The translations under genes and the position numbers were made by a program. The notes below the pieces were generated by a model. The model was not told the DNA's origin. It did no database searches and saw only the letters and a program-made list of their open reading frames with translations. From assembly GCA_947572415.1 (NCBI GenBank), contig CANPBT010000004.1, positions 220 through 64,219 of the forward strand: a stretch of 64,000 nt of DNA, read 5' to 3'. Source of the stretch: an uncultured Clostridia bacterium (GTDB lineage: Bacteria > Bacillota > Clostridia > Christensenellales > Borkfalkiaceae). The first letter of the stretch is position 1; every line of letters starts with the position of its first letter. Of this stretch, positions 1 through 29,525 are shown piece after piece.

Positions 1-556
1 TACTTTTATATTTCTCAAATAAATTATATAAAATAGGTTTTATATATGCATCAAAATCCGACACATGCCACTGTGAAGCGGCATAAACAATCTTTATCAC
101 ATTCTCATTATCGTTAACTTGTTCAATAACCTCCGCTGAATTAACTGCTGTGTTAATAACGACAAACCTGTTCTGTTTTACATAACAATAATATTCTTCT
201 CCAATTAACTTGTTTGGGGTTAATAACATTGAACATTCTTTAATACATCTAAGCAACCACTTCCTGCGCAAAGGAAATCTATAAGACTTCCTGGGCAAAT
301 CTTTAAGATCATCATCTAAAAAATATATTAAAAACTTATTATACTTATTAGCTTCTTTTAAAAGCGCGTATGTTGCAGGCGATTCCCCTCTAACACAAAT
401 AATTATATCAGCCCAATTAAATTCATCCAGTTTAATTTTTAAGCTATTTTGTTTTTTTACATTACAATCATAAATGTAAGCAAAACGTGATAAAGCCCTA
501 AAAAGATCTAACAGCGTAGGTTGCTCACTTTCATGTATTAACAGAATATTAGACAT
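1..556 (-). CDS. Polysaccharide-locus protein, N-terminal fragment (gene runs off the left edge); possibly a glycosyltransferase
   Basis: Not in the ORF track. ATG at 556-554 overlaps the flippase stop (ATGTCTAA). I checked every minus-frame triplet down to nt 2 and found no stop. Translation begins MSNILLIHESEQPTLLDLFRAL. Confidence 0.55.
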   Translation of the reverse strand, partial: MSNILLIHESEQPTLLDLFRALSRFAYIYDCNVKKQNSLKIKLDEFNWADIIICVRGESPATYALLKEANKYNKFLIYFLDDDLKDLPRKSYRFPLRRKWLLRCIKECSMLLTPNKLIGEEYYCYVKQNRFVVINTAVNSAEVIEQVNDNENVIKIVYAASQWHVSDFDAYIKPILYNLFEKYKS

Positions 557-2030
557 TTTCACTGTCCTTTTTATCTTTGAATTTTATTAGTGTTTTGAGC
601 ATTCCTAAACATTCTTTAAAAGCCTTATTTTTAGTTATGAAAGATAGTAACACATAAATTATTATTCCTGCTAACACATCAAGAATAAGTAAAACAACAT
701 TTGACAATGATGAAAGATTTATACAAAAAATTATGCCACACATAATACCTGATATTAATATTGTCGGAATAAAATCTTTCAGCATGTCTGTCAACTTAAA
801 CTTTGTAGCAATATGTGTTTCTATCAGCAAATAGATTGTCATAAGAACTTGGACACCAGCCAAAGTAGCAGATATTGTAGTAACATCAACTTTCAAATAA
901 AACATCACAAAAAACAATGCTACCATTAATATCAATCTAATAACTTCAGCTCTAATCCTAACACTATTTCTACCTATAGCAAAATTCAATTGTACACAAG
1001 CTAGAAAAATAGGCGTAGCAGCATAATACAAACAACTCCAACGCAAAACACCTATGGCTGGTAACCATTTATCAGTCAAAATAACTGAAATTAAAGGCTC
1101 AGCTATCATACATAGTCCCGCCATCATAGGTATAATTATATAGAAAGAAACATTCAATACCCTTCTAAATACCCTATTTAATTCATTATAATCTTTTTGG
1201 TAAGACGCAAACACAGGAAGAAACACATTAGATACAGCACTAAATGTATATAATGCAAAATTTCTGGGGAACAAAGAGCCTTTATCATAATACCCCAATT
1301 CTTCCATAGAATAGACTTTTCCTATTGCAATACTGTAGAATGAATCACCAACAAAAGATAATAAAGATGAAGATAATATTTTTAAGCTAGGTGGCACTAA
1401 ATCTTTTGTACTTTGTTTTGAAATTTTGAATTTAAATTTGATTCTTACAGCAAACATTAAAAGTATCGTTAAAATTAATTGATAACTTAATTGTTGGTAA
1501 ACTAACGCCCATACCTCAAACCCATATACAGCCATAATAATGCCGATAACGCTTGATAATACTGTCGAAATTAAAGTACATACACACAATGTCCTAAAGC
1601 GCATAGCACGAGAAATTGCCGCTGTCCTAACAGAAGCAAAAGCCTGGCAAAATAATGTTAAAGAAATAACACGTAATACCGAAACTAACTGTGGTGTGTC
1701 GTAAAATTCCGCAATAAATGGAGCGGTGAAAAAGATTATTATATATAGTAAAATTGAGCTAAAAATGCTAAAAATTAATACCGTTGAATAATCTTCTTCA
1801 GTTGCTTGATCTTTTCTAATTAACGCAGTCGCAAATCCAGCTTGAATTAATATATCTGTTAAATTAATAAAAACCGTTGTAAGAGCTATAATACCATAAG
1901 CCTCAGGCGCAATCAACCTTGCCAAAACTATTTGGACAAGCATTGAAATTCCTTTTGACATAAATGACTCTAATAACTTCCAAACCGAGTTAACAACTGC
2001 AGTTTTTTTTGAAATATGTGTTTCTTCCAT
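549..2030 (-). CDS. wzx: Wzx-type oligosaccharide flippase (polysaccharide biosynthesis protein, MOP/PST family)
   Basis: 493 aa and about 12-14 hydrophobic segments. The N-terminus (SVWKLLESF..KGISMLVQIVLARLIAPEAYG) is typical of PST-family flippases. It sits in a polysaccharide operon. Confidence 0.8.
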   Translation of the reverse strand: MEETHISKKTAVVNSVWKLLESFMSKGISMLVQIVLARLIAPEAYGIIALTTVFINLTDILIQAGFATALIRKDQATEEDYSTVLIFSIFSSILLYIIIFFTAPFIAEFYDTPQLVSVLRVISLTLFCQAFASVRTAAISRAMRFRTLCVCTLISTVLSSVIGIIMAVYGFEVWALVYQQLSYQLILTILLMFAVRIKFKFKISKQSTKDLVPPSLKILSSSLLSFVGDSFYSIAIGKVYSMEELGYYDKGSLFPRNFALYTFSAVSNVFLPVFASYQKDYNELNRVFRRVLNVSFYIIIPMMAGLCMIAEPLISVILTDKWLPAIGVLRWSCLYYAATPIFLACVQLNFAIGRNSVRIRAEVIRLILMVALFFVMFYLKVDVTTISATLAGVQVLMTIYLLIETHIATKFKLTDMLKDFIPTILISGIMCGIIFCINLSSLSNVVLLILDVLAGIIIYVLLSFITKNKAFKECLGMLKTLIKFKDKKDSENV

Positions 2031-2033
2031 ACA

Positions 2034-3188
2034 TTAAAATACCGAAAAACTATTTAACCCCTCAAAAAAATACCCCTGAGAATATGATGACATAAACAAC
2101 ATAAAGATTGCATAGCAAACAGTCAATGCTAAGTATTTTTTAGATTTCGCTTTGATTACTCTATTGTTTGTGCCTAAAACTAGATACTGAGATACAACGA
2201 TGTATAATATTAAAAGAATATTTTTAAATAGACGTAAATAAGTAGGGTTAAAAAAATAAAATGGAATAATTATAAAACTAATTAAAAAAATTCGGTTTAG
2301 AATTTCTAATTGTTCACGATTTAGAATAAATTTATAATATTTTCCATATTGCGCTCTCAATGCTTCATAACCAATTTTCTGAACATCAGTTTTATAACTT
2401 ATATAAATAAGCCTAAACAAAAAGTAACCGAACAAATGACAAATAATTGTGGAAACTTTTCCTTTCCAATTCAGCATTTCATCAGTCAGCCCATTTTTCA
2501 TGGCTTCAAAATTAAAGTAAACTAAATATTTTTCATTCTTTATTAATTTTCGAGCAATGCTGTATAACAAATTAAATTGTATACAAAGCATAATTAGTAA
2601 AATAATTGCTATAACAAGTGTTATAAATTTAATATTACTATTTTTCTTTTGAATATTAAATAATTTAACTAAAATAAATGAAAGATAAAATAATGCTGTA
2701 GGTTGAATGAGTGCTGCAATTAAAATAATTAAAATATATCTAAAAATTTTATGTTTTTTATCACAAATAAACTGAACAATACCATAACATACAACAATTC
2801 CCATTAAACCATTTTTTATTTGGGCGATAGAATCAAAGAATGGAAATATTAAGTAAAGAACTAACACCAATGCAACATAAGGTGTTGTTTTTTTTAAAGT
2901 TATAAATGCAATAACGAGAGTTACAGTCGCACAAACCAATTTAAAGACAATAAAATTGCCACCTAACAATTTGGTTAAGTTCATTAAAGCATCAGTCAAA
3001 AATGAATCGCCATATAAACCTTTTTCAAAAATCAGCTTATAGATATCTAAATCCGGTGAGCCGCCATTGCAAAATGTATAAATTAGAAAAAGATATAGTA
3101 AAGCAAAGCATAATGCTAGAGATTTATTCTTATTCTTGATGGTGTATCCAGTAACCGCAACTCCTGCAGTCAATAAAAATAATGCCAC
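2034..3188 (-). CDS. Polytopic membrane protein, EpsG/Wzy-like repeat-unit polymerase
   Basis: 384 aa, hydrophobic almost throughout. It lies between the flippase and the glycosyltransferases, the usual Wzy position. No catalytic motif could be verified. Confidence 0.55.
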   Translation of the reverse strand: MALFLLTAGVAVTGYTIKNKNKSLALCFALLYLFLIYTFCNGGSPDLDIYKLIFEKGLYGDSFLTDALMNLTKLLGGNFIVFKLVCATVTLVIAFITLKKTTPYVALVLVLYLIFPFFDSIAQIKNGLMGIVVCYGIVQFICDKKHKIFRYILIILIAALIQPTALFYLSFILVKLFNIQKKNSNIKFITLVIAIILLIMLCIQFNLLYSIARKLIKNEKYLVYFNFEAMKNGLTDEMLNWKGKVSTIICHLFGYFLFRLIYISYKTDVQKIGYEALRAQYGKYYKFILNREQLEILNRIFLISFIIIPFYFFNPTYLRLFKNILLILYIVVSQYLVLGTNNRVIKAKSKKYLALTVCYAIFMLFMSSYSQGYFFEGLNSFSVF

Positions 3189-3196
3189 TAATACCT

Positions 3197-4117
3197 CTAT
3201 ATATTTTGAATTATTTCATTAACTTGAGAATCAATAAGATATTTATTTAACAGTTCTTTAGGCAAATGCTCGTATGAAGACGCAACAAATTCTTTAAGTT
3301 TATTTAAATCATCTATCCCTAAAATAAATATATTATTTTTATTATAAAAATCAAAGTTGACAATATTTGTATTTGTTGTAATTAATTTAACTTCATTATA
3401 TATTGATTCATAATCTCTCATCGTAGCTCCGACTTGATTGGGCAACGTAATGTTTAAAATCGATTTTGATTTCGTAACCAAGTCGATTACTTCTTCATAT
3501 TCTATTACCTTTGAAAAACCTTTCTTTTTTTTATTTAGCCTTGTTGACGGCATAACAAGAAACTTTGTTTTTAAACCCATATCTTTAAACTGATTTTCAA
3601 GATCAAAAATATATTCGGCTCGCCCTTTATCTCTACCAACAAATACTATATCATATTCTTTATCCCTTTTTTTACCAATAAATGAAGGACAATATCCACC
3701 ACATCTAATCAAGTACAAATTATATTTTTTACTATCATTAGCATCATAGGTACAAATTTTTATTCCTGAGGGTATATTATTAGGCAATAAATGTCTTGCT
3801 TTCCCTACTAAATTTGTATATTCAAATATAATTTTTTTATCAGGATGTATTTTCTTTAACCATAACAAAAATTGTTTTGTTATAATTCCGTCAAAAACAA
3901 TTATATATTTGCCTTCAAATTGTAAAATATTTCGATTGAATAAAATCTTATGCGGAAGCCTTAACTTTACTGCAATCTCTAACATTATTCTGCCAAAAAT
4001 AGTTTTATATCTATATGGTAATTCTACCTGATAACCTGAAGCAATAAGCCCCCTGTTCACATAATTATTATCAGCAGTTATAAATAAAATATCTGATTTA
4101 TTAAATGAAATATCCAT
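3197..4117 (-). CDS. Hypothetical polysaccharide-locus protein (possible GT-B-like transferase)
   Basis: 306-aa ORF that fills the gap tightly in the operon. No motif recognised. Confidence 0.5.
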   Translation of the reverse strand: MDISFNKSDILFITADNNYVNRGLIASGYQVELPYRYKTIFGRIMLEIAVKLRLPHKILFNRNILQFEGKYIIVFDGIITKQFLLWLKKIHPDKKIIFEYTNLVGKARHLLPNNIPSGIKICTYDANDSKKYNLYLIRCGGYCPSFIGKKRDKEYDIVFVGRDKGRAEYIFDLENQFKDMGLKTKFLVMPSTRLNKKKKGFSKVIEYEEVIDLVTKSKSILNITLPNQVGATMRDYESIYNEVKLITTNTNIVNFDFYNKNNIFILGIDDLNKLKEFVASSYEHLPKELLNKYLIDSQVNEIIQNI

Positions 4118-4131
4118 TAATACCTTTAAAG

Positions 4132-5244
4132 CTAACTAATTAAAAAATTTATGATTAATCGGTTTATTTCTTTTGCATCAAATCGAGTTTCTGTAAAAAT
4201 GCAAGCATTCTTCCCCATTTTTTCAACTTCTTCTGGATGTTCTATACACCATAAAATCTTCTTCGCCAATGATTGTACATCTTTTTTTTCTATCATAAAT
4301 CCATTATATCCGTCAATTACAGTTTCTCTACACCCAACATTATTACTTGTAATAACAGCTCTACCTGTAGATTCAGCTTCCATTATTGACATAGGCAAGC
4401 CTTCACGGTACGAGGAAGGCAGCACATAGACAGAACAATCTTCCAAATAATGTCTAACATCTTTCGTAGTGCCTAAGTAATTGATACTTCCGTCATCAAT
4501 AAATTCTTGAATATCAGATATTTTAATATCTCCCTCTGCACCCAAATAATTGAATACTGCATCCGGATACTTTTGTTTAACAATACGTGCCGCCTTGCAA
4601 AACTCCATAACACCCTTTGTTTTGAGCATACGAGCTATCATCAAAAAGGTTCGGTGATTTTTAATTGGCTTATATTCAAAATAATCTAAATCAACGCCGA
4701 TACCGGGAATAACAATGCTCTGCTCTTCTTTTACCAATTTGCGGGAAACAAATTCAGCCTTATCGTCATTATTTAAAAAGTAAACTTTATTTGAGCTCTT
4801 AAATGATTTACGGTACATTTTACAAACAACGGAACGAATGATTCGCCATTTAAGTCCGTTGTTTATAAATACGTCACCTGCGCCTTCAACCATTGAAAAT
4901 ATTTTTTTTACGCCAGCTTTCTTTGCGGCACGCACACCGAAAATATTTGGTTTAAGCATAAAAGTAAAAACAATATCGGGCTTTTCGTCCTTAATAATCG
5001 CCACATATTGTTTTTGCAATTTTTTCATACCTAAAGGATTTAAACTTCTGTTTTGGGAGCAAACAGAATAATACATTACACCTTTCTCTTCAATTTCTGC
5101 TTTAAAATCATCACCCAAAGCAATAACCGACACATATGCGCCTTCATTTTGTAAAGCCTTAATTAATCCTATACGAAAATTAACAACAGTTTGCGAAGAA
5201 CCGCAAATTAATAAAATTTTTTTATTCTGCATTCCGTTGTTCAC
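4132..5244 (-). CDS. Family-4 (GT-B) glycosyltransferase
   Basis: C-terminal EGLPMSIMEAESTGRAVITSNNVGCRETV is the GT4 E-x7-E region. It overlaps the upstream gene by 23 nt, so an internal Met (MQNKKILLICG, start 5232) may be the true start. Confidence 0.85.
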   Translation of the reverse strand: MNNGMQNKKILLICGSSQTVVNFRIGLIKALQNEGAYVSVIALGDDFKAEIEEKGVMYYSVCSQNRSLNPLGMKKLQKQYVAIIKDEKPDIVFTFMLKPNIFGVRAAKKAGVKKIFSMVEGAGDVFINNGLKWRIIRSVVCKMYRKSFKSSNKVYFLNNDDKAEFVSRKLVKEEQSIVIPGIGVDLDYFEYKPIKNHRTFLMIARMLKTKGVMEFCKAARIVKQKYPDAVFNYLGAEGDIKISDIQEFIDDGSINYLGTTKDVRHYLEDCSVYVLPSSYREGLPMSIMEAESTGRAVITSNNVGCRETVIDGYNGFMIEKKDVQSLAKKILWCIEHPEEVEKMGKNACIFTETRFDAKEINRLIINFLIS

Positions 5245-6115
5245 TTTCCGTATCCTCTATTGATTGTAGTAAGGTGTATTTTACATAACTTCCAATATAC
5301 TCACTCATTTCTTTATCATAAGACAAGCTTCCAAAGGCTTTTTTGACAAGACCAGTAAATAAGCCTAAAAACTTGATCGCCCAACCGAAACCGTGTACTA
5401 AGCGCAACTTCCTGCCATTTGCTGCGGCAATCTTTTTTACCATTTCAGAAGTATTCGTATATTCCGAATTTTGCGGGAAGAAAATACCACTCTCTTCATT
5501 CAAAATCATTAAACGAACAAACTCGCACAAATTCTCTATATACAGCATAGAGCGTTCGTTTTTAATATAGGGAAAAAACTTTAATTTTAAAGCAAATTTA
5601 CGCAAAGTTAAATAATTACCTTTACAGCCTTTACCGTAAATCATTGGCGGTCGGAGAATACAAATCTTAAAATTTTCATCGGCAAGAGGAACAATTCCGT
5701 TTTCAGCTTGTACTTTACTGTCGCCGTAAGCGTTCTCGGGAGATACAGGCGTATCCCTTGTAATCATTTTCTTTTTGCCGACTTTACTGCTACTACCGTA
5801 AACAATGGCAGAGCTCATAAAAATAAATTGCTTTACTCCATCCGCCTTTGCTTTATTTGCAGTTTCAACTGTCAAGTCAGTATTTACTGAGTAATACAGC
5901 TTTGCCTTTTCTTCACTTATCTTACCACTATCCGAATGTGCAATTCCCGCAACGTGAAAAACAACATCATAACCTGAAAAGCTTTTTTCTCGCCATGCGC
6001 TATCACGCAAATCAATAGTATCAAAACTGCATTCTTCGGGAAAATGCTCGGATATATATTTTTCAACGGAAGTGCCGATATAACTATGTGCTCCCGTTAT
6101 GAGAACCTTTTTCAA
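5222..6115 (-). CDS. NAD-dependent sugar epimerase/dehydratase (SDR)
   Basis: N-terminal Rossmann motif KKVLITGAHSYIGTSV plus the SDR catalytic Y-x3-K (YGDSK). 4-nt overlap with the upstream gene. Confidence 0.8.
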   Translation of the reverse strand: MKKVLITGAHSYIGTSVEKYISEHFPEECSFDTIDLRDSAWREKSFSGYDVVFHVAGIAHSDSGKISEEKAKLYYSVNTDLTVETANKAKADGVKQFIFMSSAIVYGSSSKVGKKKMITRDTPVSPENAYGDSKVQAENGIVPLADENFKICILRPPMIYGKGCKGNYLTLRKFALKLKFFPYIKNERSMLYIENLCEFVRLMILNEESGIFFPQNSEYTNTSEMVKKIAAANGRKLRLVHGFGWAIKFLGLFTGLVKKAFGSLSYDKEMSEYIGSYVKYTLLQSIEDTESEQRNAE

Positions 6116-6786
6116 TCGGCATTTGCCTCCTCGTCCTGATCATTTTCAAGCTCGCTGTTGGTTGTAGCAATAGCTTCCTCTTCCTGCTTATTGAGTTCGC
6201 CTGTGCCACCTTCGACTACACCGTCGTGCTTGACAACGGATATAAACGTACCGAAGAAACACTTTAAATCGAAGAAAAATCCCATACGCTTAACGTACTC
6301 GCCGTCAAATGCCGCTTTTACCGGAATTTCCAACTCGTCCCTGCCGTTGATTTGCGCCCAGCCTGTAAGCCCCGGTTTAATGTCATTAGCACCGTATTTG
6401 TCACGCTCAGCAATCAAATCGTCCTGATTCCAAAGCGCGGGACGTGGACCTATTATTGCCATTTGTCCTGCAAAGATATTAAAAATCTGCGGAAGCTCGT
6501 CAAGTGACGTTTTTCTTAAAAATCCGCCAACTTTGGTAATCCACTTTTTAGGGTCGCTCAACTTGTGCGTAGGTGCATCATGCGGTGTGTCGATACGCAT
6601 CGTGCGGAACTTTAAAATCTTAAATATCTTTTTCTTTTTACCGACACGGTTCTGTTTAAAAAATACTGGACCTTTACTGTCGCACTTGATTGCCAATGCG
6701 ATTATAAACATTGGAAGAGCCAATATAATTATTCCTAAAAAGGACAGAATTAAATCAATTAATCTTTTGAAAAAATGTTTATACAT
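6112..6786 (-). CDS. Small monotopic phosphoglycosyl transferase (bacterial sugar transferase, PglC/WbaP C-terminal type)
   Basis: One N-terminal membrane helix, then KGPVFFKQNRVGK..F.ILKFRTM and LDELPQ..N...G.M..IGPRP motifs. It has an unusual acidic C-terminal tail (ELENDQDEEANAD). Confidence 0.85.
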   Translation of the reverse strand: MYKHFFKRLIDLILSFLGIIILALPMFIIALAIKCDSKGPVFFKQNRVGKKKKIFKILKFRTMRIDTPHDAPTHKLSDPKKWITKVGGFLRKTSLDELPQIFNIFAGQMAIIGPRPALWNQDDLIAERDKYGANDIKPGLTGWAQINGRDELEIPVKAAFDGEYVKRMGFFFDLKCFFGTFISVVKHDGVVEGGTGELNKQEEEAIATTNSELENDQDEEANAD

Positions 6787-6803
6787 AAATATAAGCCCAA
6801 ATA

Positions 6804-7313
6804 TTATGCTTGATTACGGTATACCGTACCTGCAACAATTTTCGTCTTGGAAGGCACTGCCGCACTGACGGATACCACTCCATTGTAATCAATCTGGCAG
6901 AAATCGTTGACAACGCTGTTATGTCCCACTACACTTCCTGCACAGAGAAACACACCGTTACCGATTACGCTGTTTGCATTGACTGTAACAAATGGTTCTA
7001 TAACACAACCTTTGCCTATTCTTGCAGATGACGAAACATAGCTTTTGTCGGAAATAATATTTACAATCTCAAATCCGATTTGTTCTAGTTCGTTATAAAT
7101 CTTTTGCCTTATCTCAGGATTGCCGATAGCTATAATAGCACAAGAAAACTCTTTTAAAAATTTTTCACTTTCAGAAACTTTACCGATAGCTAATGGATTA
7201 TTATCGTCTATAAACTCAATTTTATTGAACCTACCCGTTTCTGCCGCTAATTCTTTTACTACTTGACCGTAACCTCCAGCACCGAAGATTAACAAATTGC
7301 CATAATGCACCAT
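6804..7313 (-). CDS. NeuD/PglD-family sugar N-/O-acetyltransferase (left-handed beta-helix)
   Basis: N-terminal LLIFGAGGYG nucleotide-binding-like segment followed by hexapeptide repeats (IGKGCVIEPFVTVNANSVIGNGVFLCAGSVVGHNSVV). First gene of the operon. Confidence 0.75.
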   Translation of the reverse strand: MVHYGNLLIFGAGGYGQVVKELAAETGRFNKIEFIDDNNPLAIGKVSESEKFLKEFSCAIIAIGNPEIRQKIYNELEQIGFEIVNIISDKSYVSSSARIGKGCVIEPFVTVNANSVIGNGVFLCAGSVVGHNSVVNDFCQIDYNGVVSVSAAVPSKTKIVAGTVYRNQA

Positions 7314-7430
7314 AATTATAGATTTTATTATACTACATTATATATAGAATTGCAATTGAATTACAAAAATTTTCCAGATGATATTCCTTATTTCTATTAT
7401 TTTGGCTTAATGAAAAGCAATTTATTTAAA

Positions 7431-7468
7431 AATAGCAAAAACAGTTCAGGCATAATTGCCTGAACTGT
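7431..7468 (-). terminator. Intrinsic terminator ending the ATPase/4TM-HRDC operon
   Basis: Perfect 11-bp stem ACAGTTCAGGC / GCCTGAACTGT (7441-7451 / 7458-7468) with a 6-nt loop. An A-run on the plus strand gives a U-tract on the minus-strand transcript. Confidence 0.8.
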
Positions 7469-7485
7469 TTAATTAATTACCCACA

Positions 7486-7537
7486 CAAAGCTTTCTATTT
7501 TATTATTACCGTATGTATTGTGGAATTATTTAGAAAG
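7486..7537. repeat. Left copy of the ~55-nt imperfect direct repeat (decayed duplicate of the spoIIID-like 3' end)
   Basis: Aligns with 12597-12653: 16/21 identical, then an identical 11-mer TACCGTATGTA (7507-7517), then about 16 more matches with two small gaps. Confidence 0.6.
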
Positions 7538-7578
7538 ATCATATTATTTATAAATTAAATTTTATCTATGAATATGTA

Positions 7579-8883
7579 TCATGCCGCACCTTTAAGTTCT
7601 TCATAACTTATTATAATGTGAATAAATAATTCTCCATAAAAATCATATTTCTTCTGCCCCAAGCCATAAATCGAAATAAAAGAATTCTCATCCTTTGGCT
7701 TATAAGTTGCCAAAGCGACTAATTGTTGATTATTGAAAATCATATAAGCTTTTATTCTTTTCTCTTTTGCTAACCTTAATCGTTCTTTTTTTAGTATATT
7801 TAATAATTTAATATCAGTTTTTATTTCTCCATCCACTGAAACTACAACTTCAAATCCATCAACGTTTTCTGTATTATTTGGCTTAGTTTCTTCTTTACGC
7901 TTGTTTATATCCTCTTCTTGGCATATATCTATTTTTGAAACTTTTTCTTTTTTGTTTTCGGAACTTACTGCTTTCTCAGTTTCATTAGTTTCTATAATTT
8001 GATTATAAAGAAATTCAATATCGCATTTACCGAATCTTTCAATATTACATATTTTATTCTCATAAATTGAAATTAATAAATAGTAATAATTTTCTCCTAT
8101 ATCTTTATAAACTAAAATCAATTGGTCATCACCCGTATTAACCTGTATATCTGTAATTGATAAACAATGATTAGGTTGAATAGCCAAATAAGAAAAATCA
8201 TCCCCTATTTGATATATATCACAACCACAAAGTTTAAATAGACCAATTATATAACCAAAGTTATTGCTGATATTCTTGATTTTTAAATTTAATTTCATAT
8301 CTCCAAGCGCACTTTTTACTTTATATTCTGATTCCTTATCCGAATTATCATAAAGTTCGAATATTAAATTATTTTTATCAATTCTTTCGTTTCTTTGTTG
8401 CACAAGAGTATAATGTACTCCCATGATAGTCAGTATAGTCGCAGAAAAAGTTGTAACAGCAGTAAATAGCGATACAATTATTTCTCTTCCCTGTGGTATA
8501 TTAATATAACAGAGTAATAGTACAAAATAAATTGGAACAACCAATATAGCAAAACTTATTAATCCACTTGATAATTTACCCAATTTAAATTGTAGGCTGT
8601 TTTTTAAAAATATCGAAACAACATAACTTATCATTGCAATCAAAGTCAACACAATAAATATGCTAGCTATAATTATTGAAGCAGTATTGAACTCATTTTT
8701 AATTTCGCTTATAGCAAAAACGGTCATTACAGCTAACGCACAAACCAACATCATTATGTATGAAAAAATACCACAAGATGTAAAAAATGAAATCTTATAG
8801 TTTTCCATACGCACAAAAAAATCTTCTTTTCTCTTTTTCCAAAGCGAAAATTTCTTTTTAATTTTTTCAAATCCTTTTATCAT
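7579..8883 (-). CDS. Four-TM membrane protein with an unknown central domain and a C-terminal HRDC domain
   Basis: Basic N-terminus (KKKFSLWKKRKED), four hydrophobic helices in aa ~30-165, and a K/E-rich linker. The last ~70 aa (LLNILKKERLRLAKEKRIKAYMIFNNQQLVALATYKPKDENSFISIYGLGQKKYDFYGELFIHII) match the RecQ HRDC pattern position by position. RBS GGAAGGAAA lies 6 nt before the ATG. Confidence 0.7.
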   Translation of the reverse strand: MIKGFEKIKKKFSLWKKRKEDFFVRMENYKISFFTSCGIFSYIMMLVCALAVMTVFAISEIKNEFNTASIIIASIFIVLTLIAMISYVVSIFLKNSLQFKLGKLSSGLISFAILVVPIYFVLLLCYINIPQGREIIVSLFTAVTTFSATILTIMGVHYTLVQQRNERIDKNNLIFELYDNSDKESEYKVKSALGDMKLNLKIKNISNNFGYIIGLFKLCGCDIYQIGDDFSYLAIQPNHCLSITDIQVNTGDDQLILVYKDIGENYYYLLISIYENKICNIERFGKCDIEFLYNQIIETNETEKAVSSENKKEKVSKIDICQEEDINKRKEETKPNNTENVDGFEVVVSVDGEIKTDIKLLNILKKERLRLAKEKRIKAYMIFNNQQLVALATYKPKDENSFISIYGLGQKKYDFYGELFIHIIISYEELKGAA

Positions 8884-8916
8884 TTGTATTTCCTTCCCAT
8901 AAATTTACAATCACTA

Positions 8917-10152
8917 TCAAATATACCAGAGTTGAAGATGCAACACATATTTCATTAATGCACCGGGTTGTGGACACATACAAATAATTGCTCCCGTGCC
9001 TCGCTTTTTATTTTCCAATTTGTCGAGCACGGTAAACGCCGAAGTTTCGTCAGCCGTTACTTTTACGCCCTGCTTAATTTCGATAGGATACAAAACGCCG
9101 TTCTCTTCGATAATAATATCTATCTCGCTTTCAGCATTTGCTTTTTTATCCTTACCTCGATAGTAAGAAACACAATAACGGTAATCTATCCCACTGTTGG
9201 AATAGGACTTTAATATTTCAGAGATTACGAAAGTTTCAAAGAATGCTCCGCTCATAGCCCCTACTGCTAGCGTTTCAGGTGTGAGCCAACGAGTTAAATA
9301 TGCGGCAAGCCCAGTATCCCTGAAATATAATTTAGGCGTTTTAATAGCTCGTTTCAATACAGCCGATGTGTACGGTTCAAGCAAATATATGATCCCCGAC
9401 GCTTCCAGAATGGAAATCCAATTTTTGACCGTGCCTTGATCTCTTCCGATTTCATCGGCGATATTGGAATAATTAAGCATCTGTCCAGTGCGTGCTGCAA
9501 CCGCAACCATAAACTTTCGGAAGTCGTCCAAATTCTGTACAGCAGAAAGGCTGCGGACATCACGCTCTAAATACGTTTTTACATAACTTGCGTAGAACGT
9601 TCCCCAATCAGCGTTTGGATTTTGTAATTCGGGAAAGCCTCCCCTATGGATAATCTGCCAAATATTCTGCATTTGTTTCGCCGTTTTCCCCCGTTCCTGC
9701 ACATATTCCATCGTCGGCAAGAAGGGCTTGCTAAAACTATCCCCAATAATTTCGCGCAACGAAAGTCCGCTCATTTCAATGATGCCGACGCGCCCCGAAA
9801 GCGATTCGGAAACGTTTTTCATTAGCTCGAACGGTTGTGAACCAGAAAGACAGAACAGGCCCCTTTCGTCCTCTTCGTCGCACTTGATTTTAATATAACG
9901 AAAAAGATCGGTTACTCTCTGCACCTCGTCGTATATGACGGGCGGCTGATTTAACATCATGAACGTATTCGGGTTTTCTTTTGCCTGTTCTTCTATAAAG
10001 GGGTCGTCGAACGAAACGTACTTTTTATCGGCAAATAACCTCTTAATCATCGTAGACTTGCCCGTTTGCCTTGCGCCCGTAACAAGAATACACTTGAACG
10101 CTTTATCATTCTTTTGTACGATTTCTTCGATGCTTCTTTTAATATAATTCAT
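8917..10152 (-). CDS. AAA_14/DUF4143-type ATPase with a C-terminal PD-(D/E)xK-like motif
   Basis: Walker A GARQTGKST, Walker B-like VIYDEVQ, and a C-terminal EIDIIIEENGVLYPIEIK (D...E.K). The track starts at a TTG (10167). The ATG at 10152 (MNYIKRS) is preceded by GGTGA and is the more likely start. Confidence 0.85.
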   Translation of the reverse strand: MNYIKRSIEEIVQKNDKAFKCILVTGARQTGKSTMIKRLFADKKYVSFDDPFIEEQAKENPNTFMMLNQPPVIYDEVQRVTDLFRYIKIKCDEEDERGLFCLSGSQPFELMKNVSESLSGRVGIIEMSGLSLREIIGDSFSKPFLPTMEYVQERGKTAKQMQNIWQIIHRGGFPELQNPNADWGTFYASYVKTYLERDVRSLSAVQNLDDFRKFMVAVAARTGQMLNYSNIADEIGRDQGTVKNWISILEASGIIYLLEPYTSAVLKRAIKTPKLYFRDTGLAAYLTRWLTPETLAVGAMSGAFFETFVISEILKSYSNSGIDYRYCVSYYRGKDKKANAESEIDIIIEENGVLYPIEIKQGVKVTADETSAFTVLDKLENKKRGTGAIICMCPQPGALMKYVLHLQLWYI

Positions 10153-10172
10153 AATTTCACCAAACAAAAAAC

Positions 10173-10203
10173 GACTAATCTCGAATTTAATTCCAGATTA
10201 GTC
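10173..10203 (-). promoter_or_regulatory. Inverted repeat over the transcription start and leader of the ATPase operon (operator or leader hairpin)
   Basis: GACTAATCT-N13-AGATTAGTC is a perfect 9-bp inverted repeat whose spacer can pair internally (GAAT/ATTC). On the transcript it is followed by GUUUUUUGUUUGG and then the SD sequence. Confidence 0.5.
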
Positions 10204-10205
10204 AT

Positions 10206-10234
10206 ATTATAGTCTATCTGCGGAGAAAAGTCAA
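10206..10234 (-). promoter_or_regulatory. Sigma-70/SigA-type promoter of the ATPase/4TM-HRDC operon
   Basis: On the minus strand: TTGACT (10234-10229), 17 nt, TATAAT (10211-10206). Confidence 0.65.
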
Positions 10235-10313
10235 TAGGTAAATTTATCAAACTTTGCTAATAAGCTATGTTTTCTTTGATACAATTTTAAAAGTTCAATG
10301 ATTGCTATTTAAT

Positions 10314-10367
10314 TTATGCATATTTTTGGACATACGATTTCTCGAATTATGCATATTTTTCGACATA
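10314..10367. repeat. Two 21-bp direct repeats spaced 33 bp apart
   Basis: TTATGCATATTTTTGGACATA (10314-10334) and TTATGCATATTTTTCGACATA (10347-10367) are 20/21 identical. A partial third copy AAATGCATA lies near 10405. Confidence 0.6.
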
Positions 10368-10526
10368 TCGTTGATCAGAAATACATTTTAATAATTCAGC
10401 TTAAAAATGCATACGGTTTTTAAACGGAAGTGACATAATCACCGTATCGCATACTATTTAATTCGTCAAGCATTTCTTGAAATTGACTGTGATTTTAAAA
10501 GATTCGTTAGATTGCCTAAAAAGGAA

Positions 10527-12406
10527 TTAAAGCTTATAATAATCCAGAATAAAACTACTATCTTTTTTTCTTTCCGTTTTAAGGTCGATTATAAAATACT
10601 CTTCACCGTTTTTACGAAATTTACCGCGTTTAATATTGTTGCTTATATTTGGAATCCCGTCTTTTTTAGCTGATATTTTATCCGCATAGTATGTCGCCTC
10701 TTTTGTGATTTTATTGATTATTATTAAATCCTCCTGATGCCCCATTTTCATGTTTTGCTCTTTGGCGCATATTTTACACACACGATATCCGCCATGATAT
10801 TTTCTAAATTGTGCGGTTATTGAATACGCATATGGATGACAAGAGATTTTATGATTTTCACATCTCAAATATACCTCTTGCTTTTTCCGCATGTAACTTT
10901 ATCGGGGAAGATTCCCTTTTTGTTGTTAGTATCCCAGTCCCAATACTTTTCAATGAATTCCGGAAACATATCCTTTAAAGATATTTTAGACCTCTTCGAA
11001 GTTTGCTCGTAACCGTTCATTTCAGAATCCGATGATAAGGCTTTCGATTCTGGTTTATCTGCCCATAAATAACCCTTGTACGTTTTGTTAGTATTCAAAT
11101 AATTACTCGTATGCTCTGCATCTCTTACAACTTGCCTAAAACCTGCTTTACATAAGTCTTTATGGCTTTTAAATTCATTCACTATTTTAGAAGTTTTGGG
11201 ATCAATTTGCATAACAGGTTTAAATTTCGCTTCTCTCGACAACTCAATTCCACACTTTTTGCATCCAAATTTTAGCTTACTTACAAGTAACGGCGTTGAA
11301 CGCCAATGATAATCATTATGTTTACGACAAATGAAGTTTTGTTCAATTGTACTTGTATAGCTTATTTTGTTGGGATCCGCATCATTGTTTTCATAATCCC
11401 AATATACTATTGCTTTGTCGCGACATTTCTGAAAGAAGCTATCTTCCGGATTCAACATTCCTTCTCGGTTTTCTCTTCCTCTTGACAATCGACATACTTC
11501 CGACGGACACCCGCTATTAGGTCTAAACCGATTACTTATTATACTTGTCCATTCATGTTTGCAATTTCTGCAAACCCAATGCGCGTAACAGTTCGAATTA
11601 GGCGAAAAATTAAATATCGTAAATCCGGCATTCTTTTTATAGTCCCATTCGGTCGCCAATTCCATTCGTCTAAGTCTTGTTTTATCATCTAAGGTTTTCT
11701 CATACAGCTTTTTAGGTTTATATATCGCAAGTATCTTCATGCAATCTTCTTTGACGTCTATTTTAACCTTATTACTTATAAATTTGTTAATTTTATCAAT
11801 GAAGAATTTTTCAATTACCGCTTGCATTTGAGTAAAATTACTTTCTTTGTAATAATATTCCGCTTCTAATTCTTTTTCGCTTTTTTTATAAGCATAAAAT
11901 CTTATTAACTCATAATTATGATCAACCAAAAGTTTAGCCTTACGCAAATCAATATCCTTCTGTTCCTGAACACAGTGCTTAACTCCGTTGTGTTCAATTA
12001 CAAACCTAAATTCAGGAGCAGTCAATACGATATCGGCCTCATACTTTCCGTTTGCTTCGGGAATACCTAAATCTTTAAACGAAGCACGCCTTCTGAGTAC
12101 CCATTTCAACTGTTTATTATTTTGACAAGCACTTTTAAGATAAAAATATATAGCAGACTCACCAAAAGATTCCGAATTTTTATTACAGTACGGGCAACCG
12201 GTTGCTTTTACATCCTTTGTCCTATTGCTGAACGAGGTTTTCCACCCACGTCCGCATTTACAGCATCTCCAAAATACGTCTTTTGACTTTTTACCGTGTA
12301 TTATTTCATCGGGATAAAGTCCGTTTTTATTATTCTTTTTAAAATCCCATTCTTTTTCAATAATGTCTAAATATTTTTTTTGTTTATATTCGTCCGGTTT
12401 GTTCAT
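10527..12406 (-). pseudogene. Frameshifted nuclease gene: multiple zinc ribbons, PD-(D/E)xK core and NUMOD-like modules (homing-endonuclease-like)
   Basis: Two ORFs (10865-12406 and 10527-10892) overlap by 28 nt. The fourth W-x-C...C-x2-C zinc-ribbon repeat is split between them: YWDWDTNNKKGIFPDKVTCGK is followed in the other frame by QEVYLRCENHKISCHPY...RVCKIC. An A5 run (10882-10886) lies in the overlap. A nuclease-like core (YEADIVL...FVIEHNGVKH) follows ribbon 1. Confidence 0.7.
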
Positions 12407-12453
12407 AAATATTCTCCTAAAACAATACGCGTTGGGAAATATTCTATTTCAAT

Positions 12454-12484
12454 ATTATAACACCATATACTATCAATATGTCAA
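12454..12484 (-). promoter_or_regulatory. Candidate extended -10 promoter for the zinc-ribbon nuclease gene
   Basis: On the minus strand: TTGACA (12484-12479), a long 19-nt spacer, then TGTTATAAT (TG-n-TATAAT, 12462-12454). RBS AGGAG lies before the ATG at 12406. Confidence 0.45.
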
Positions 12485-12542
12485 TTATATGAATTCAAAA
12501 ACAGCGGCGCCAAGAAAAAAATCTTGTCGCATCGATATCATG

Positions 12543-12573
12543 AAAAAAAGCGGGCTCGTAAGCCCACTTTTTT
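12543..12573 (-). terminator. Bidirectional-looking intrinsic terminator after the SpoIIID-like remnant
   Basis: A7 - GCGGGCT CGTA AGCCCAC - T6. The stem has 6 of 7 positions paired. Confidence 0.65.
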
Positions 12574-12596
12574 GTGAGGTTAGTTTATTATTAATA

Positions 12597-12653
12597 CAAA
12601 CCTTTCCATTATGTTACTACCGTATGTACGGTTGATTTGGAAATATTGAAATG
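12597..12653. repeat. Right copy of the ~55-nt imperfect direct repeat
   Basis: Covers the last ~10 codons, the stop and the first 3'-UTR bases of the SpoIIID-like ORF. See the left copy at 7486-7537. Confidence 0.6.
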
Positions 12654-12737
12654 TTTTGCCGTTGAACGAACAGTTGAATTTGTTTCTATTATATATTTAC
12701 TCTCTTTAATAACCCTCTCTGCAATATAATCGTACAT
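12609..12737 (-). CDS. spoIIID: SpoIIID-family HTH protein, truncated (42 aa against ~90 aa for the full protein); possibly a pseudogene
   Basis: Not in the ORF track. MYDYIAERVIKESKYIIETNSTVRSTAKHFNISKSTVHTVVT matches my recollection of B. subtilis SpoIIID residues 1-38 (MHDYIKERTIKIGKYIVETKKTVRVIAKEFGVSKSTVH) at about 25/38 positions. RBS GGAGGT precedes the ATG. The ORF stops right after the recognition helix. Confidence 0.6.
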   Translation of the reverse strand: MYDYIAERVIKESKYIIETNSTVRSTAKHFNISKSTVHTVVT

Positions 12738-12760
12738 TTACGGTACCTCCACGTAATTAA

Positions 12761-12791
12761 ATAATATGCGAAAAAGAGTCGGTATATACCG
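12761..12791 (-). promoter_or_regulatory. Possible sporulation-type (sigma-E-like) promoter plus a 12-bp palindrome upstream of the SpoIIID-like ORF
   Basis: On the minus strand: GGTATATACC, 14 nt, CATATTAT. The palindrome is CGGTATATACCG (12780-12791). The match is to a consensus recalled from memory only. Confidence 0.25.
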
Positions 12792-12795
12792 AAAC

Positions 12796-13374
12796 TTATC
12801 GAAGAATGCTTTCAATGCGCTCAAGCACTTTGTCAAGCCCCTGCCGCGTCTGCGAGGAAACGGCGATAATGTTGTCCGAGCCGCACTTGAACGTTGCGGC
12901 TATGTTTGTAATACTACGCGCTGCCGCCGCCTTTGAAAGCTTGTCGGCCTTGGTCGCGATTACGGTAAACGGCAACACATTATAATACAAATAGCTTATC
13001 ATTTGTTTATCGTCCTCCGTTGGGTCGTGACGTAAATCGCAGAGAGCAAATATGTGAGCCGCATTTTTTTCTGCAAAAAACCGCTCCAGAAGGCGCGCCC
13101 ACTTGGCTTTTTCCTCTTTGGATACGCGTGCAAAGCCGTAACCGGGCAAATCCGCAAGCACAAAATCTCCGAAATCGAAATAGTTTACAAGCCTTGTTCT
13201 ACCCGGGTCCTTTGAAACTCTGGCAAGCTTATTTTGATTGGCAAGCATATTAATAAAGCTTGACTTGCCAACATTTGACTTGCCGCATACAGCGATTACA
13301 GGCTTGTCCGGCTTTATGAATTGCGCCTTGCTCGCCGCGCTGGTTATAAATTTTGCATTTGTGATTTTATACAT
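12796..13374 (-). CDS. engB: Ribosome-biogenesis GTPase EngB/YsxC
   Basis: G1 motif GKSNVGKSSFIN and G3 motif DLPGYG. Conserved position downstream of lon. Confidence 0.9.
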   Translation of the reverse strand: MYKITNAKFITSAASKAQFIKPDKPVIAVCGKSNVGKSSFINMLANQNKLARVSKDPGRTRLVNYFDFGDFVLADLPGYGFARVSKEEKAKWARLLERFFAEKNAAHIFALCDLRHDPTEDDKQMISYLYYNVLPFTVIATKADKLSKAAAARSITNIAATFKCGSDNIIAVSSQTRQGLDKVLERIESILR

Positions 13375-13375
13375 T

Positions 13376-28115: not shown

Positions 28116-29525
28116 ATGACGGTTAAACAATTTTTTAAAAGCACCACGTTTAAGTGTCTTGTCACGCTCCTTTCCATTCTGCTTGTCTGCGGGATTTTCC
28201 TTACGATTATGCACGGTCTTTTGGAAGTTACTGCCGAAGAAAAGCTTTCAAGGGCAATAAGTAAAATTTACGGCAAAAACGTAACGACCGAGATATCCGA
28301 GGTCAAAAACAAGGAGCTTGACCTTGCAACAATCGAGGAAGCGTACTGCGTAACATCAGAGGGCGGAAACTTCCTTGTTAAGTCAACCGGTAAAGGCGGC
28401 TTTGCGGGTACGGTTACATGTTGGGTTGTCGTTGAAATCAAAGATAATAAAATTTCAGGCGTTGGTAAAGTTGCAATTGATTCTTACGTCGGCGAAACGC
28501 AGATGGCGGAAATAAAACAGTCTTTCCTCGACAGCTTCGGCGAAAAATATACGGACGGTATCTACTACACCACCGACGACGGTTTTAAAGTATCCAGCTC
28601 GACAAAGTCGTCAAACGCTATCTGTAATGCGGTAAACGGCGCGTTGCAGTACGTTAAGACCGAAAAGCTCGGCATGGAGACAAACGATAAGTTCAAAGAT
28701 TTCTTACACACCGAATTCATCAACAAAAAATCAACCACATTCAAAATGGCAGCAAACGGCGGCGTAACTTACAACATCACGACCGCGGGGTACGGTTTGG
28801 CAAGCTCGTCCACTATCGAAATCACCGTTTCGAAAGACAAAATTATTACCGCATATAAGGTAACGGCGGACGGGTCTACGGACGGTTACTCGCTGAAAGC
28901 CGACATTAAAAACGGCGTACCGTTCATCGGCAAAAATCTTGCGGATATCACCGCTATTCTCGGCGAAGGGCTCGAATACCCCGGCGACGACATGAACACC
29001 GCAGTGAACACGGGCGCGAGCAATACGACTTACGACTGCTATACCGCCGCAGTGTTTGCACTTGCAAACTTCGATATTGCGCTTGCAAACATCGACGTTT
29101 TCGAAAACTTCGAACATCTTAAATTTATAAACAAATCAAAATCCAAATTTACCGTAAACGAGGATTTAAGCGTAACGTACGCGCTTGTTACTGCCGGTTA
29201 CGGTTTGGCAAGCTCGTCCACTATCGAAATCACCGTTTCGAAAGACAAAATTATTACCGCATATAAGGTAACGGCGGACGGGTCTACGGACGGTTACTCG
29301 CTGAAAGCCGACATTAAAAACGGCGTACCGTTCATCGGCAAAAATCTTGCGGATATCACCGCTATTCTCGGCGAAGGGCTCGAATACCCCGGCGACGACA
29401 TGAACACCGCAGTGAACACGGGCGCGAGCAATACGACTTACGATTGCTACACCGCCGCAGTGTTTGCACTTGCAAACTACGACAACTGCGTTCCCGCTGA
29501 AAGCGAAGGAGGCAAAGCACAATGA
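28116..29525 (+). CDS. rnfG: Rnf complex subunit G, expanded (469 aa; three FMN-bind-like domains)
   Basis: N-terminal TM helix, then an RnfG-type FMN-bind domain (GKGGFAGTVTCWVVVEI...VSSSTKSSNAI), then two further FMN-bind-like domains (GYGLASSSTIEITV...NTGASNTT). Lies between rnfD and rnfE. Confidence 0.85.
   Translation: MTVKQFFKSTTFKCLVTLLSILLVCGIFLTIMHGLLEVTAEEKLSRAISKIYGKNVTTEISEVKNKELDLATIEEAYCVTSEGGNFLVKSTGKGGFAGTVTCWVVVEIKDNKISGVGKVAIDSYVGETQMAEIKQSFLDSFGEKYTDGIYYTTDDGFKVSSSTKSSNAICNAVNGALQYVKTEKLGMETNDKFKDFLHTEFINKKSTTFKMAANGGVTYNITTAGYGLASSSTIEITVSKDKIITAYKVTADGSTDGYSLKADIKNGVPFIGKNLADITAILGEGLEYPGDDMNTAVNTGASNTTYDCYTAAVFALANFDIALANIDVFENFEHLKFINKSKSKFTVNEDLSVTYALVTAGYGLASSSTIEITVSKDKIITAYKVTADGSTDGYSLKADIKNGVPFIGKNLADITAILGEGLEYPGDDMNTAVNTGASNTTYDCYTAAVFALANYDNCVPAESEGGKAQ
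28791..29478 (+). repeat. Tandem duplication inside rnfG (408-bp period; 280-bp near-identical cores)
   Basis: 28791-29070 and 29199-29478 differ at only 2 positions, both synonymous (GAC/GAT and TAT/TAC). The ~128 bp upstream of each core is diverged. Confidence 0.9.

What the first reader, a model, noticed from the sequence alone, without database searches (positions are those of the whole stretch)
7486..12653. ~55-nt imperfect direct repeats bracket a 5.1-kb three-gene cassette that has no recombinase
The alignment of plus-strand 7486-7537 with 12597-12653:
- 16/21 identical (CAAAGCTTTCTATTTTATTAT vs CAAACCTTTCCATTATGTTAC).
- Then an identical 11-mer TACCGTATGTA (7507-7517 / 12618-12628).
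- Then about 16 more matches with two short gaps (TTG--TGGAATTATT vs TTGATTTGGAAATATT).

Context of the two copies:
- The right copy is the last ~10 codons, the stop and the first 3'-UTR bases of the SpoIIID-like ORF.
- The left copy is a decayed duplicate just after the stop of the 4TM-HRDC gene.
- In minus-strand sense each copy is followed by about 20-25 AT-rich nt and a strong terminator hairpin.

The ATPase, 4TM-HRDC and zinc-ribbon nuclease genes therefore look like one inserted unit with an att-like duplication or recombination scar. No integrase or transposase is present. The only mobility candidate is the frameshifted homing-endonuclease-like gene.
Basis: seen in the sequence. Interest (0 to 1): 0.65.

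Follow-up and report, generated by a model that had tools for sequence, protein, structure and literature searches.

The report
Recombinase sites of a spoIIID-splitting island
The two repeats are attachment sites of a 28-kb mobile island that has cut the sporulation regulator gene spoIIID in two; its serine recombinase lies outside the window, and the 5.1-kb three-gene block is only the island's first cargo module.

Summary
The repeat is real: local alignment score 47, against a null of 19 ± 3 with a maximum of 36.

- **Right copy.** This is where spoIIID breaks off after codon 38 and runs into the end of an inserted element (attL). Close relatives carry the intact site: engB-HAD-spoIIID (83 aa)-BcrAD.
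- **Rest of the element.** A contig that differs from the window by 5 of 12,737 bases shows the island is 28,193 bp. In order it holds the cassette, a polysaccharide locus, a Mob_Pre relaxase, a 533-aa large serine recombinase, then the 3' half of spoIIID and BcrAD.
- **Left copy.** This is a decayed internal attP-like site. Its left arm matches the element's recombinase-side arm better than it matches spoIIID.
- **Reading.** The cassette is a recombinase-less module fused in front of a 23-kb element. It was never seen moving alone. Its DUF4379 gene is a frameshifted pseudogene that also occurs alone in an unrelated genome.
- **Spread.** The same STVH|TVV junction occurs in 33 distinct SpoIIID lineages in metagenomes.

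"No recombinase" and "homing endonuclease" do not. This is a new member of the skin/SPβ/gin kind of gene-splitting element.

The parts
12624..12737 (-). 5' half of the split spoIIID gene (codons 1-38, ending ...SKSTVH). With the element's tail it reads on as a 42-aa ORF whose stop is at 12609-12611.
   Evidence: Pfam SpoIIID positions 2-41 of 82. Intact 83-aa alleles with STVH|KDVTERL occur in relatives. Joined to the 3' half on L163, it gives a full-length SpoIIID match of 119 bits.
12594..12653 (.). Right repeat = attL. The spoIIID-side arm (B) is 12627-12653 and the predicted crossover dinucleotide CA is 12625-12626. The element-side arm (P' tail, ACGGTAGTAACATAATGGAAAGG...) is 12594-12623.
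   Evidence: Occupied and empty alleles diverge exactly after GTACAT. The crossover in the L052 hybrids lies inside GTACATACGGT. Across 41 distinct tails the first 10 nt were fixed by the search pattern; the further conservation to about +23 (CAAAAyAGAACG) is independent of it.
12548..12575 (.). Hairpin terminator after the tail, with T-runs on both sides. It is also the left edge of the DUF4379 unit shared with L169.
10527..12406 (-). DUF4379 (treble-clef zinc finger x3) gene, frameshifted into a 513-aa ORF (10865-12406) and a 121-aa ORF (10527-10892). The middle region has a weak DUF559-like (nuclease-fold) match.
   Evidence: Pfam hit. The 672-aa homologue P0263 covers both ORFs in one frame. 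DUF559 E = 0.005, below the curated cut-off. A 93%-identical unit (window 12573-10475) stands alone in L169.
8917..10167 (-). AAA_14/DUF4143 ATPase, a candidate anti-phage gene (PADLOC PDC-S01).
   Evidence: Pfam. PADLOC PDLC04790, E = 2e-95. Other PDC-S01 ATPases occupy the same position after the tail in L043 and L001.
7579..8883 (-). Membrane protein with a C-terminal HRDC domain.
   Evidence: Pfam HRDC, E = 7e-15, residues 359-424. Only the HRDC part matches RecQ or DpdF models.
7468..7541 (.). Left repeat = decayed internal attP-like site. The P-type arm plus core is 7513-7541 (CTTTCTAAATAATTCCACAATACAT). The P' tail is 7468-7512 (ACGGTAATAATAAAATAGAAAGCTTTGTGTGGGTAATTAATTAAA).
   Evidence: The tail is closer to the L002-type tail (score 65) than to the right copy (47). 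The left arm scores 11 against the P arm of L149/L163 and 7 against the spoIIID arm; the null 99th percentile is 8. It is present in every contig that carries this island.
7439..7470 (-). Strong terminator (14-bp stem) after the left tail, upstream of the polysaccharide operon leader.
   Evidence: The leader 7314-7377 is 79% identical to the L002 operon leader.
1..7313 (-). Polysaccharide biosynthesis locus (PglD-like acetyltransferase, sugar transferase, epimerase, glycosyltransferases, EpsG-like polymerase, flippase). This is the cargo of module 2 and continues about 15.6 kb beyond the window's left edge to the relaxase, the recombinase and attR.
12779..13374 (-). Host flank: engB (12796-13374) and its terminator (12779-12792). 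GC steps from about 0.49 (host) to about 0.33 (island side) near here.

Best explanation
**What it is.** The window holds the left 12.6 kb of a 28.2-kb integrative, mobilizable island. A large serine recombinase (LSR) inserted it into spoIIID between codons 38 and 39, at GTA-CA-T.

**Right repeat.** This is attL, the spoIIID arm joined to the element's P' arm.

**Far end.** It lies outside the window, on a near-identical contig. There the 533-aa LSR gene runs into the P arm and is followed directly by the 3' half of spoIIID and by BcrAD. This is attR.

**Left repeat.** This is a second, decayed site of attP type (P arm, core, P' arm) inside the island. It marks where a 5.1-kb recombinase-less module was fused in front of a 23-kb element. 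That module carries the DUF4379 pseudogene, the PDC-S01-type ATPase and the HRDC membrane protein. The 23-kb element carries the polysaccharide locus, the relaxase and the LSR, and it once abutted spoIIID directly, as a related island does in L002.

**How the fusion may have arisen (inferred).** One route is attL x attR recombination between two chromosomes carrying different elements. Another is integration of a fused circle with two attP sites.

**Present behaviour.** The composite now moves, or recently moved, as one unit.

**Shown:**
- the split gene;
- the intact site in relatives;
- the LSR and relaxase at the far end;
- the common junction;
- the P-arm likeness of the left copy.

**Inferred:**
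- that the LSR catalysed the insertion;
- the route of fusion;
- excision that would rejoin spoIIID.
For: - **Split gene.** The 5' half matches Pfam SpoIIID 2-41/82. The 3' half follows the LSR on L163-L166, L168 and L149. Joined, they give a full-length match.
- **Same molecule.** NODE_1052 and NODE_181 carry both ends. The stitched contig has 5 mismatches over 12,737 nt against the window. The element is 28,193 bp, with modules of 5,111 and 23,082 bp and GC 0.34 against 0.46-0.49 in the flanks.
- **Empty site.** L072-L077 have engB-HAD-spoIIID (83 aa)-BcrAD. The first 38 residues are identical to the truncated ORF of L001.
- **LSR.** It has Resolvase, Recombinase and Zn_ribbon domains. It is 76% identical to the LSR of L109, a complete 6.2-kb element in the same site, and 58% to that of L070.
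- **Hotspot at the core.** L043/L044, of the same species, carry a different cargo after ...GTAACATAA. L052/L054/L059 join an L002-type 5' spoIIID to the window-type island inside GTACATACGGT at 99.7% identity.
- **Site anatomy.** Reconstructed attP sites are dyads centred on GTA-CA-TAC: 15/24 (5 of 300 mononucleotide shuffles reach it) and 16/24 (0 of 300 reach it).
- **Left copy.** P-arm and tail scores are.
- **Precedent.** Tandem junction modules occur elsewhere (L090, L078).
- **Spread.** 33 distinct SpoIIID N-termini share the STVH|TVV junction.
Against: - The recombinase, relaxase and attR are not in the window itself. They were read on contigs from other samples that are near-identical where they overlap.
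- No excision or circular junction was seen. Only assembled contigs were available for four runs, and they showed no joints.
- The left copy shows no significant ungapped dyad (12/24). Its left arm is also weakly like the spoIIID arm (score 7, about the 95th percentile of the null). Calling it a P arm rests on one comparison.
- Module 1 was never found apart from module 2 in about 45 contigs.
- Its DUF4379 part occurs alone elsewhere. Ordinary mosaic recombination therefore also shaped the cassette.
- It is not known whether this organism sporulates.
Confidence: 0.75

Rival explanations
1. The left copy is a by-product of ordinary (homologous or illegitimate) recombination between two island variants, not of a site-specific step. 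A donor segment (truncated spoIIID, tail, cassette) was joined to a recipient island inside the recipient's own truncated spoIIID. This left the recipient's last codons and tail as a scar.
For: - The left arm has weak likeness to the spoIIID arm (score 7-9 against a null of 3.9 ± 2.5).
- The cassette is a mosaic, since the DUF4379 unit occurs alone elsewhere.
- L001 has extra cargo after its tail with no second site.
- Partial spoIIID relics fused to other ORFs exist (L079).
Against: - The left arm matches the element's P arm clearly better than the spoIIID arm (11 against 7; null 99th percentile 8).
- The spacing from core to tail is kept.
- The other observed exchanges break at or next to the core rather than at random places: L052 inside the core, L043 within 15 nt after it.
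Confidence: 0.15
2. One reading: the three genes are one self-contained mobile cassette that duplicated its target on insertion, moved by the frameshifted homing-endonuclease-like gene.
For: - Direct repeats bracket the three genes.
- The DUF4379 gene has a weak nuclease-fold (DUF559) match and turns up in an unrelated genome.
Against: - The repeat is the att site of an LSR element found in 33 lineages with quite different cargo.
- Serine recombinases make no target duplication.
- No homing-endonuclease family matches.
- The DUF4379 unit in L169 travels without the other two genes and without the repeats.
- No cassette-free copy of this island was seen.
Confidence: 0.03
3. The repeated tail plus terminator is a functional RNA or regulatory module, such as a 3' UTR or insulator, kept in two copies because it is useful, not because it is a recombination site.
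For: - Each tail is followed by a terminator.
- The tail is transcribed as the end of the truncated ORF.
Against: - The terminators differ completely between copies and between islands. Only the first roughly 23-45 nt after the core are conserved.
- That conservation mirrors the P arm as an inverted repeat. This is expected for recombinase half-sites and not for a terminator module.
Confidence: 0.05

Closest known systems
skin element in sigK (SpoIVCA), SPβ in spsM (SprA/SprB), gin in gerE: gene-intervening elements of mother-cell sporulation genes (PMC4191935, PMC5595907, PMC5025042)
   Same: - A large serine recombinase element sits inside the reading frame of a mother-cell sporulation gene.
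- The recombinase gene is next to an att site.
- Uninterrupted alleles exist in relatives.
- Joining the halves restores an intact ORF.
- Like gin, the element is not a prophage.
   Different: - The target is spoIIID, which I did not find reported as a split gene in the searched library.
- The element carries a relaxase, a whole polysaccharide locus and candidate defence genes.
- Developmental excision and a directionality factor are untested.
- The host is an uncultured mouse-gut Christensenellales-like bacterium whose sporulation is unknown.
Composite SCC islands at rlmH (orfX) in staphylococci, with ccr-less pseudo-SCC modules bounded by repeated attachment sequences (own knowledge; the L070 LSR scores best to CcrB among NCBIfam models)
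   Same: - LSR-driven islands stack at a single chromosomal site.
- Internal att-type repeats mark module borders.
- Some modules have no recombinase and depend on a neighbour's.
   Different: - SCC inserts at the 3' end of its target without inactivating it. Here the target ORF is cut in the middle.
- The recombinase is only distantly CcrB-like: 148 bits against a family cut-off of 900.
CIME/ICE accretion at the fda gene of Streptococcus thermophilus (own knowledge)
   Same: A recombinase-less module flanked by att sites lies in tandem with a complete element, and is explained by accretion followed by decay.
   Different: Those elements use tyrosine integrases with long identity segments. Cis-mobilisation of the module was shown experimentally there and not here.

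Membership tests
LSR gene-intervening element of a sporulation gene (skin/SPβ/gin kind) | The element splits the ORF, and the 5' and 3' parts flank it and join to an intact ORF. | tested here: met
   The 5' half is at 12624-12737. The 3' half follows the element on L163/L149. Joined, the 83 aa match Pfam SpoIIID 2-81/82 at 119 bits.
LSR gene-intervening element of a sporulation gene (skin/SPβ/gin kind) | An uninterrupted allele exists at the same locus in close relatives. | tested here: met
   L072-L077 have engB-HAD-spoIIID (83 aa)-BcrAD. The junction is precise in the alignments.
LSR gene-intervening element of a sporulation gene (skin/SPβ/gin kind) | A large serine recombinase is encoded in the element next to an att site. 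| tested here: met
   A 533-aa protein with Resolvase, Recombinase and Zn_ribbon domains ends at the attR core. It lies on contigs near-identical to the window, but outside the window.
LSR gene-intervening element of a sporulation gene (skin/SPβ/gin kind) | The att sites are short dyads around a central dinucleotide, with no target duplication. | tested here: met
   Reconstructed attP dyads are 15/24 (5 of 300 shuffles reach it) and 16/24 (0 of 300), centred on GTA-CA-TAC. No duplication is seen in L109.
LSR gene-intervening element of a sporulation gene (skin/SPβ/gin kind) | Precise excision in the mother cell, controlled by a directionality factor, restores the gene. | not testable with these tools
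   Only assembled contigs were available, and they showed no joints. No directionality factor was sought.
Integrative mobilizable element (IME) | The element has its own relaxase and integrase but no conjugation machinery. | tested here: met
   A Mob_Pre relaxase (E = 4e-48) and the LSR are present. No transfer-apparatus families appear in the gene lists of the 28 kb. oriT was not sought.
Recombinase-less module of a composite island (CIME / pseudo-SCC kind) | The module is bounded by two att-type sites in direct orientation and lacks a recombinase. | tested here: met
   Searches cover the sites. Searches show no recombinase.
Recombinase-less module of a composite island (CIME / pseudo-SCC kind) | The module is found, or excises, apart from its neighbour. 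| tested here: not met
   The cassette is always linked to this polysaccharide locus in about 45 contigs, and no joints were seen. A module-2-like island without the cassette does exist in L002.
Homing endonuclease gene | A recognised homing-endonuclease domain is present. | tested here: not met
   Only DUF4379 zinc fingers pass threshold. DUF559 is sub-threshold. There are no PADLOC or NCBIfam hits.

The most novel reading that the evidence does not exclude
spoIIID, the early mother-cell regulator, is a widespread and so far undescribed target of serine-recombinase elements in gut Clostridia. Three further things would follow:
- Excision in the mother cell rejoins the gene, so the element gates sporulation.
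- The site acts as a stacking platform that collects cargo such as capsule loci and candidate defence genes.
- In some lineages it forms tandem arrays of truncated spoIIID modules ahead of an intact copy.
Probability: 0.35. Interest if true: 0.75.

Novelty: new member of a known kind. Interest (0 to 1): 0.6.

Why it matters
- **The 'recombinase-less cassette' is explained.** It is a cargo module of a larger recombinase-bearing island.
- **It would add spoIIID to the short list of split sporulation genes** (sigK, spsM, spoVFB, spoVR, gerE). In Bacillus subtilis, SpoIIID helps drive expression of the recombinase that rejoins sigK (PMC6957869), so a split spoIIID would place a DNA rearrangement one step earlier in the cascade.
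- **A whole surface-polysaccharide locus rides on a mobilizable element.** The island is shared at 99.7% identity between two gut species whose backbones are about 77% identical. This bears on how capsule types and candidate defence genes spread in the gut.

Tried and rejected
- **Viral contigs.** The attL pattern gave no hit. The 13 attP-pattern hits lacked the tail consensus and any LSR or spoIIID match, so they are chance.
- **Excision joints.** Contigs of four runs laid on 7000-13400 showed none. One loose end only confirmed the L052-type hybrid.
- **Full-length spoIIID with the window's own N-terminus.** None was found among 7,841 homologues. All sampled strains of this species therefore seem to carry an element.
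- **Further relic sites.** An nhmmer search found none in L001 or L043.
- **Ungapped dyad in the left copy.** Not significant.
- **The 'decayed spoIIID codons' reading of the left arm.** It is only marginally supported, and I now prefer the P-arm reading.
- **DUF4379 annotation.** PADLOC and NCBIfam gave nothing.
- **LSR remnants.** None were found in the window.
- **Integron-cassette reading.** Considered and dropped. There is no tyrosine integrase, and the repeat is an LSR site.
Full report
**1. The observation**

The repeat exists at the stated coordinates. The 11-mer TACCGTATGTA lies at 7507-7517 and 12618-12628. The pair is the top direct repeat in 7000-13000: 59 nt, 75% identity, spacing 5111. 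A gapped local alignment scores 47. Real AT-rich segment pairs give 19.4 ± 3.0 with a maximum of 36, and shuffles give 19.7 ± 2.6 with a maximum of 37. Each copy is followed, in minus-strand sense, by a terminator hairpin.

**2. The right copy is a broken gene's end**

The ORF at 12612-12737 (42 aa) matches only positions 2-41 of the 82-position Pfam SpoIIID model. Protein searches returned two classes with near-identical N-termini:
- full-length proteins of 82-85 aa reading ...SKSTVH|KDVTERL...;
- truncated ORFs of 42-50 aa reading ...SKSTVH|TVV...

In the species of L001 (EngB 88% identical to the window's) the truncated form sits at engB-HAD-ORF, followed by a tail, a terminator and foreign genes. 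Other strains of that species have engB-HAD-spoIIID (83 aa)-BcrAD/DUF2229, and the first 38 residues are identical. That is the empty site. The insertion point is GTACAT|AAAGAT, which becomes GTACAT|ACGGTAGTAA.

**3. The rest of the element**

The window is AT-rich (about 0.30) from position 1 to about 12,780 and about 0.48 beyond. Everything left of the junction belongs to the insert.

I searched with the BcrAD neighbour of the empty site. A cluster member lies on the same 120-kb and 37.6-kb contigs that carry the window-type junction. Stitching the 37.6-kb contig gives these figures:

| Measure | Value |
|---|---|
| Mismatches against the window | 5 in 12,737 nt |
| Element length, attL to attR | 28,193 bp |
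| Element GC | 0.34 |
| Flank GC | 0.46-0.49 |

The gene order is:
1. tail and terminator;
2. DUF4379, ATPase and HRDC (5,111 bp);
3. the second site and its terminator;
4. a polysaccharide locus of about 17 kb;
5. a 385-aa HTH protein;
6. a Mob_Pre relaxase;
7. a 164-aa ORF;
8. a 541-aa HTH_24 protein;
9. a 533-aa large serine recombinase with Resolvase, Recombinase and Zn_ribbon domains;
10. the P arm and core;
11. the 3' 45 codons of spoIIID;
12. BcrAD.

The two spoIIID halves join to an 83-aa protein with a full-length Pfam match of 119 bits.

**4. The site behaves as a recombinase site**

- **Other elements in the same place.** L109 is a complete 6.2-kb element at the same position with an LSR 76% identical to this one and no duplication. 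L070 has a related LSR 0.6 kb after the junction.
- **Many lineages.** A metagenome scan found the junction in 64 loci with 33 distinct SpoIIID N-termini.
- **Tail conservation.** The first 10 nt of the tail were fixed by the search pattern. The further conservation to about +23 (CAAAAyAGAACG) is independent, and beyond that the tails split into sub-families.
- **Dyad symmetry.** The P arm is the inverted repeat of the tail. Reconstructed attP sites give 15/24 (5 of 300 shuffles reach it) and 16/24 (0 of 300), centred on GTA-CA-TAC.
- **Breakpoints at the core.** Two same-species contigs carry a different cargo after ...GTAACATAA. Three contigs with the L002 species' backbone and its own 5' spoIIID carry the window-type island at 99.7% identity, with the crossover inside GTACATACGGT.

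**5. The left copy**

Its tail matches the L002-type tail (score 65) better than the right copy (47). It keeps the group consensus to about +45. Its left arm scores 11 against the element's P arm, where the null is 2.9 ± 1.5 with a 99th percentile of 8. It scores 7 against the spoIIID arm.

It therefore reads as P arm, core, P' arm: an attP-type site, decayed in its inner positions, with no significant ungapped dyad. In L002 a related tail directly follows the truncated gene and precedes a terminator, a permease and a polysaccharide operon with a homologous leader. Module 2 thus looks like an element that once abutted spoIIID, and the cassette is a later front-end addition. Tandem junction modules occur in other lineages (L090, L078).

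**6. The cassette**

- **ATPase.** It is an AAA_14/DUF4143 protein matching the PADLOC candidate PDC-S01. Different PDC-S01 ATPases occupy the same place in L043 and L001.
- **HRDC protein.** Only its C-terminal domain is recognisable.
- **DUF4379 gene.** It is frameshifted, since a 672-aa homologue spans both ORFs. Its 2.1-kb unit, terminator included, is 93% identical to a lone copy in an unrelated 55%-GC genome.
- **Linkage.** The cassette is a mosaic. It was always found linked to this polysaccharide locus, and no excision joints were seen in contigs.

**7. Comparison and novelty**

The closest known systems are the serine-recombinase elements that split mother-cell sporulation genes: skin, SPβ, and especially the non-prophage gin (PMC4191935, PMC5595907). 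The stacking with internal att sites and a recombinase-less module recalls composite SCC islands and CIME/ICE accretion; that comparison rests on my own knowledge.

I found no report of spoIIID as a split target in the searched library. That is absence from that library only.

I file this as a new member of a known kind.

**8. Limits**

- The recombinase and attR lie outside the window.
- Catalysis, excision and sporulation of the host are all untested.
- The route by which the two modules fused is inferred.

Noticed in passing
L163 9720-9770 (attR; outside the window): The recombinase ORF ends in a TAA made at the junction (…ACC GAC CGT ACA TAA|AGA), so the P arm encodes its C-terminus. In the excised circle the ORF would instead read on into the tail for about 18 more codons. 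The protein's end would then differ between the integrated and excised states.
   Followed up: partly
L078, L082, L107, L115, L135, L090 (metagenome loci): In several lineages a truncated spoIIID, tail and recombinase-less cargo (1.4-6.4 kb) are followed by a complete spoIIID. The promoter and first 38 codons are duplicated, with 181 and 195 bp exact in L078 and L107. L090 and L078 have two such modules in tandem. Serine recombinases do not make such duplications, and I have no tested mechanism for it.
   Followed up: partly
L002 14562-14849 versus L035 9837-10124: A 288-bp stretch (165 bp upstream plus 38 codons) is 98.6% identical between a truncated and a full-length spoIIID locus with unrelated flanks. 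In L035-L040 the full-length gene is preceded by a truncated IS200-type Y1 transposase gene, then either a split serine recombinase or prophage tail genes. These may be the two ends of one island, but that is not shown.
   Followed up: partly
L043/L044 10125-13800: Same species as the window (99.6% identity over 10 kb), but after the junction there is a different cargo: a 395-aa PDC-S01 ATPase and a 751-aa protein with a RyR domain. Both contigs end there, so the far side is unknown.
   Followed up: partly
window 10475-12573 versus L169 9835-11679: The DUF4379 gene with its upstream hairpin is 92-94% identical to a lone copy in an unrelated 55%-GC genome. That copy has a 271-bp deletion that removes the frameshift region. 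The gene seems to travel by itself.
   Followed up: partly
L079 (metagenome locus): About 12 codons of spoIIID (AAKHFGISKSTVH) plus the tail are fused in frame after an unrelated ORF. This is another partial relic of the junction away from an intact 5' half.
   Followed up: no
window 28843-28857 and 29251-29265: Two identical 15-mers (TATATGCGGTAATAA) 408 nt apart turned up as 2-mismatch hits to the core pattern. They are probably an unrelated local repeat.
   Followed up: no
L163 14428-14932: A BrnT/BrnA toxin-antitoxin pair lies just beyond BcrAD/DUF2229 on the host side of attR.
   Followed up: no
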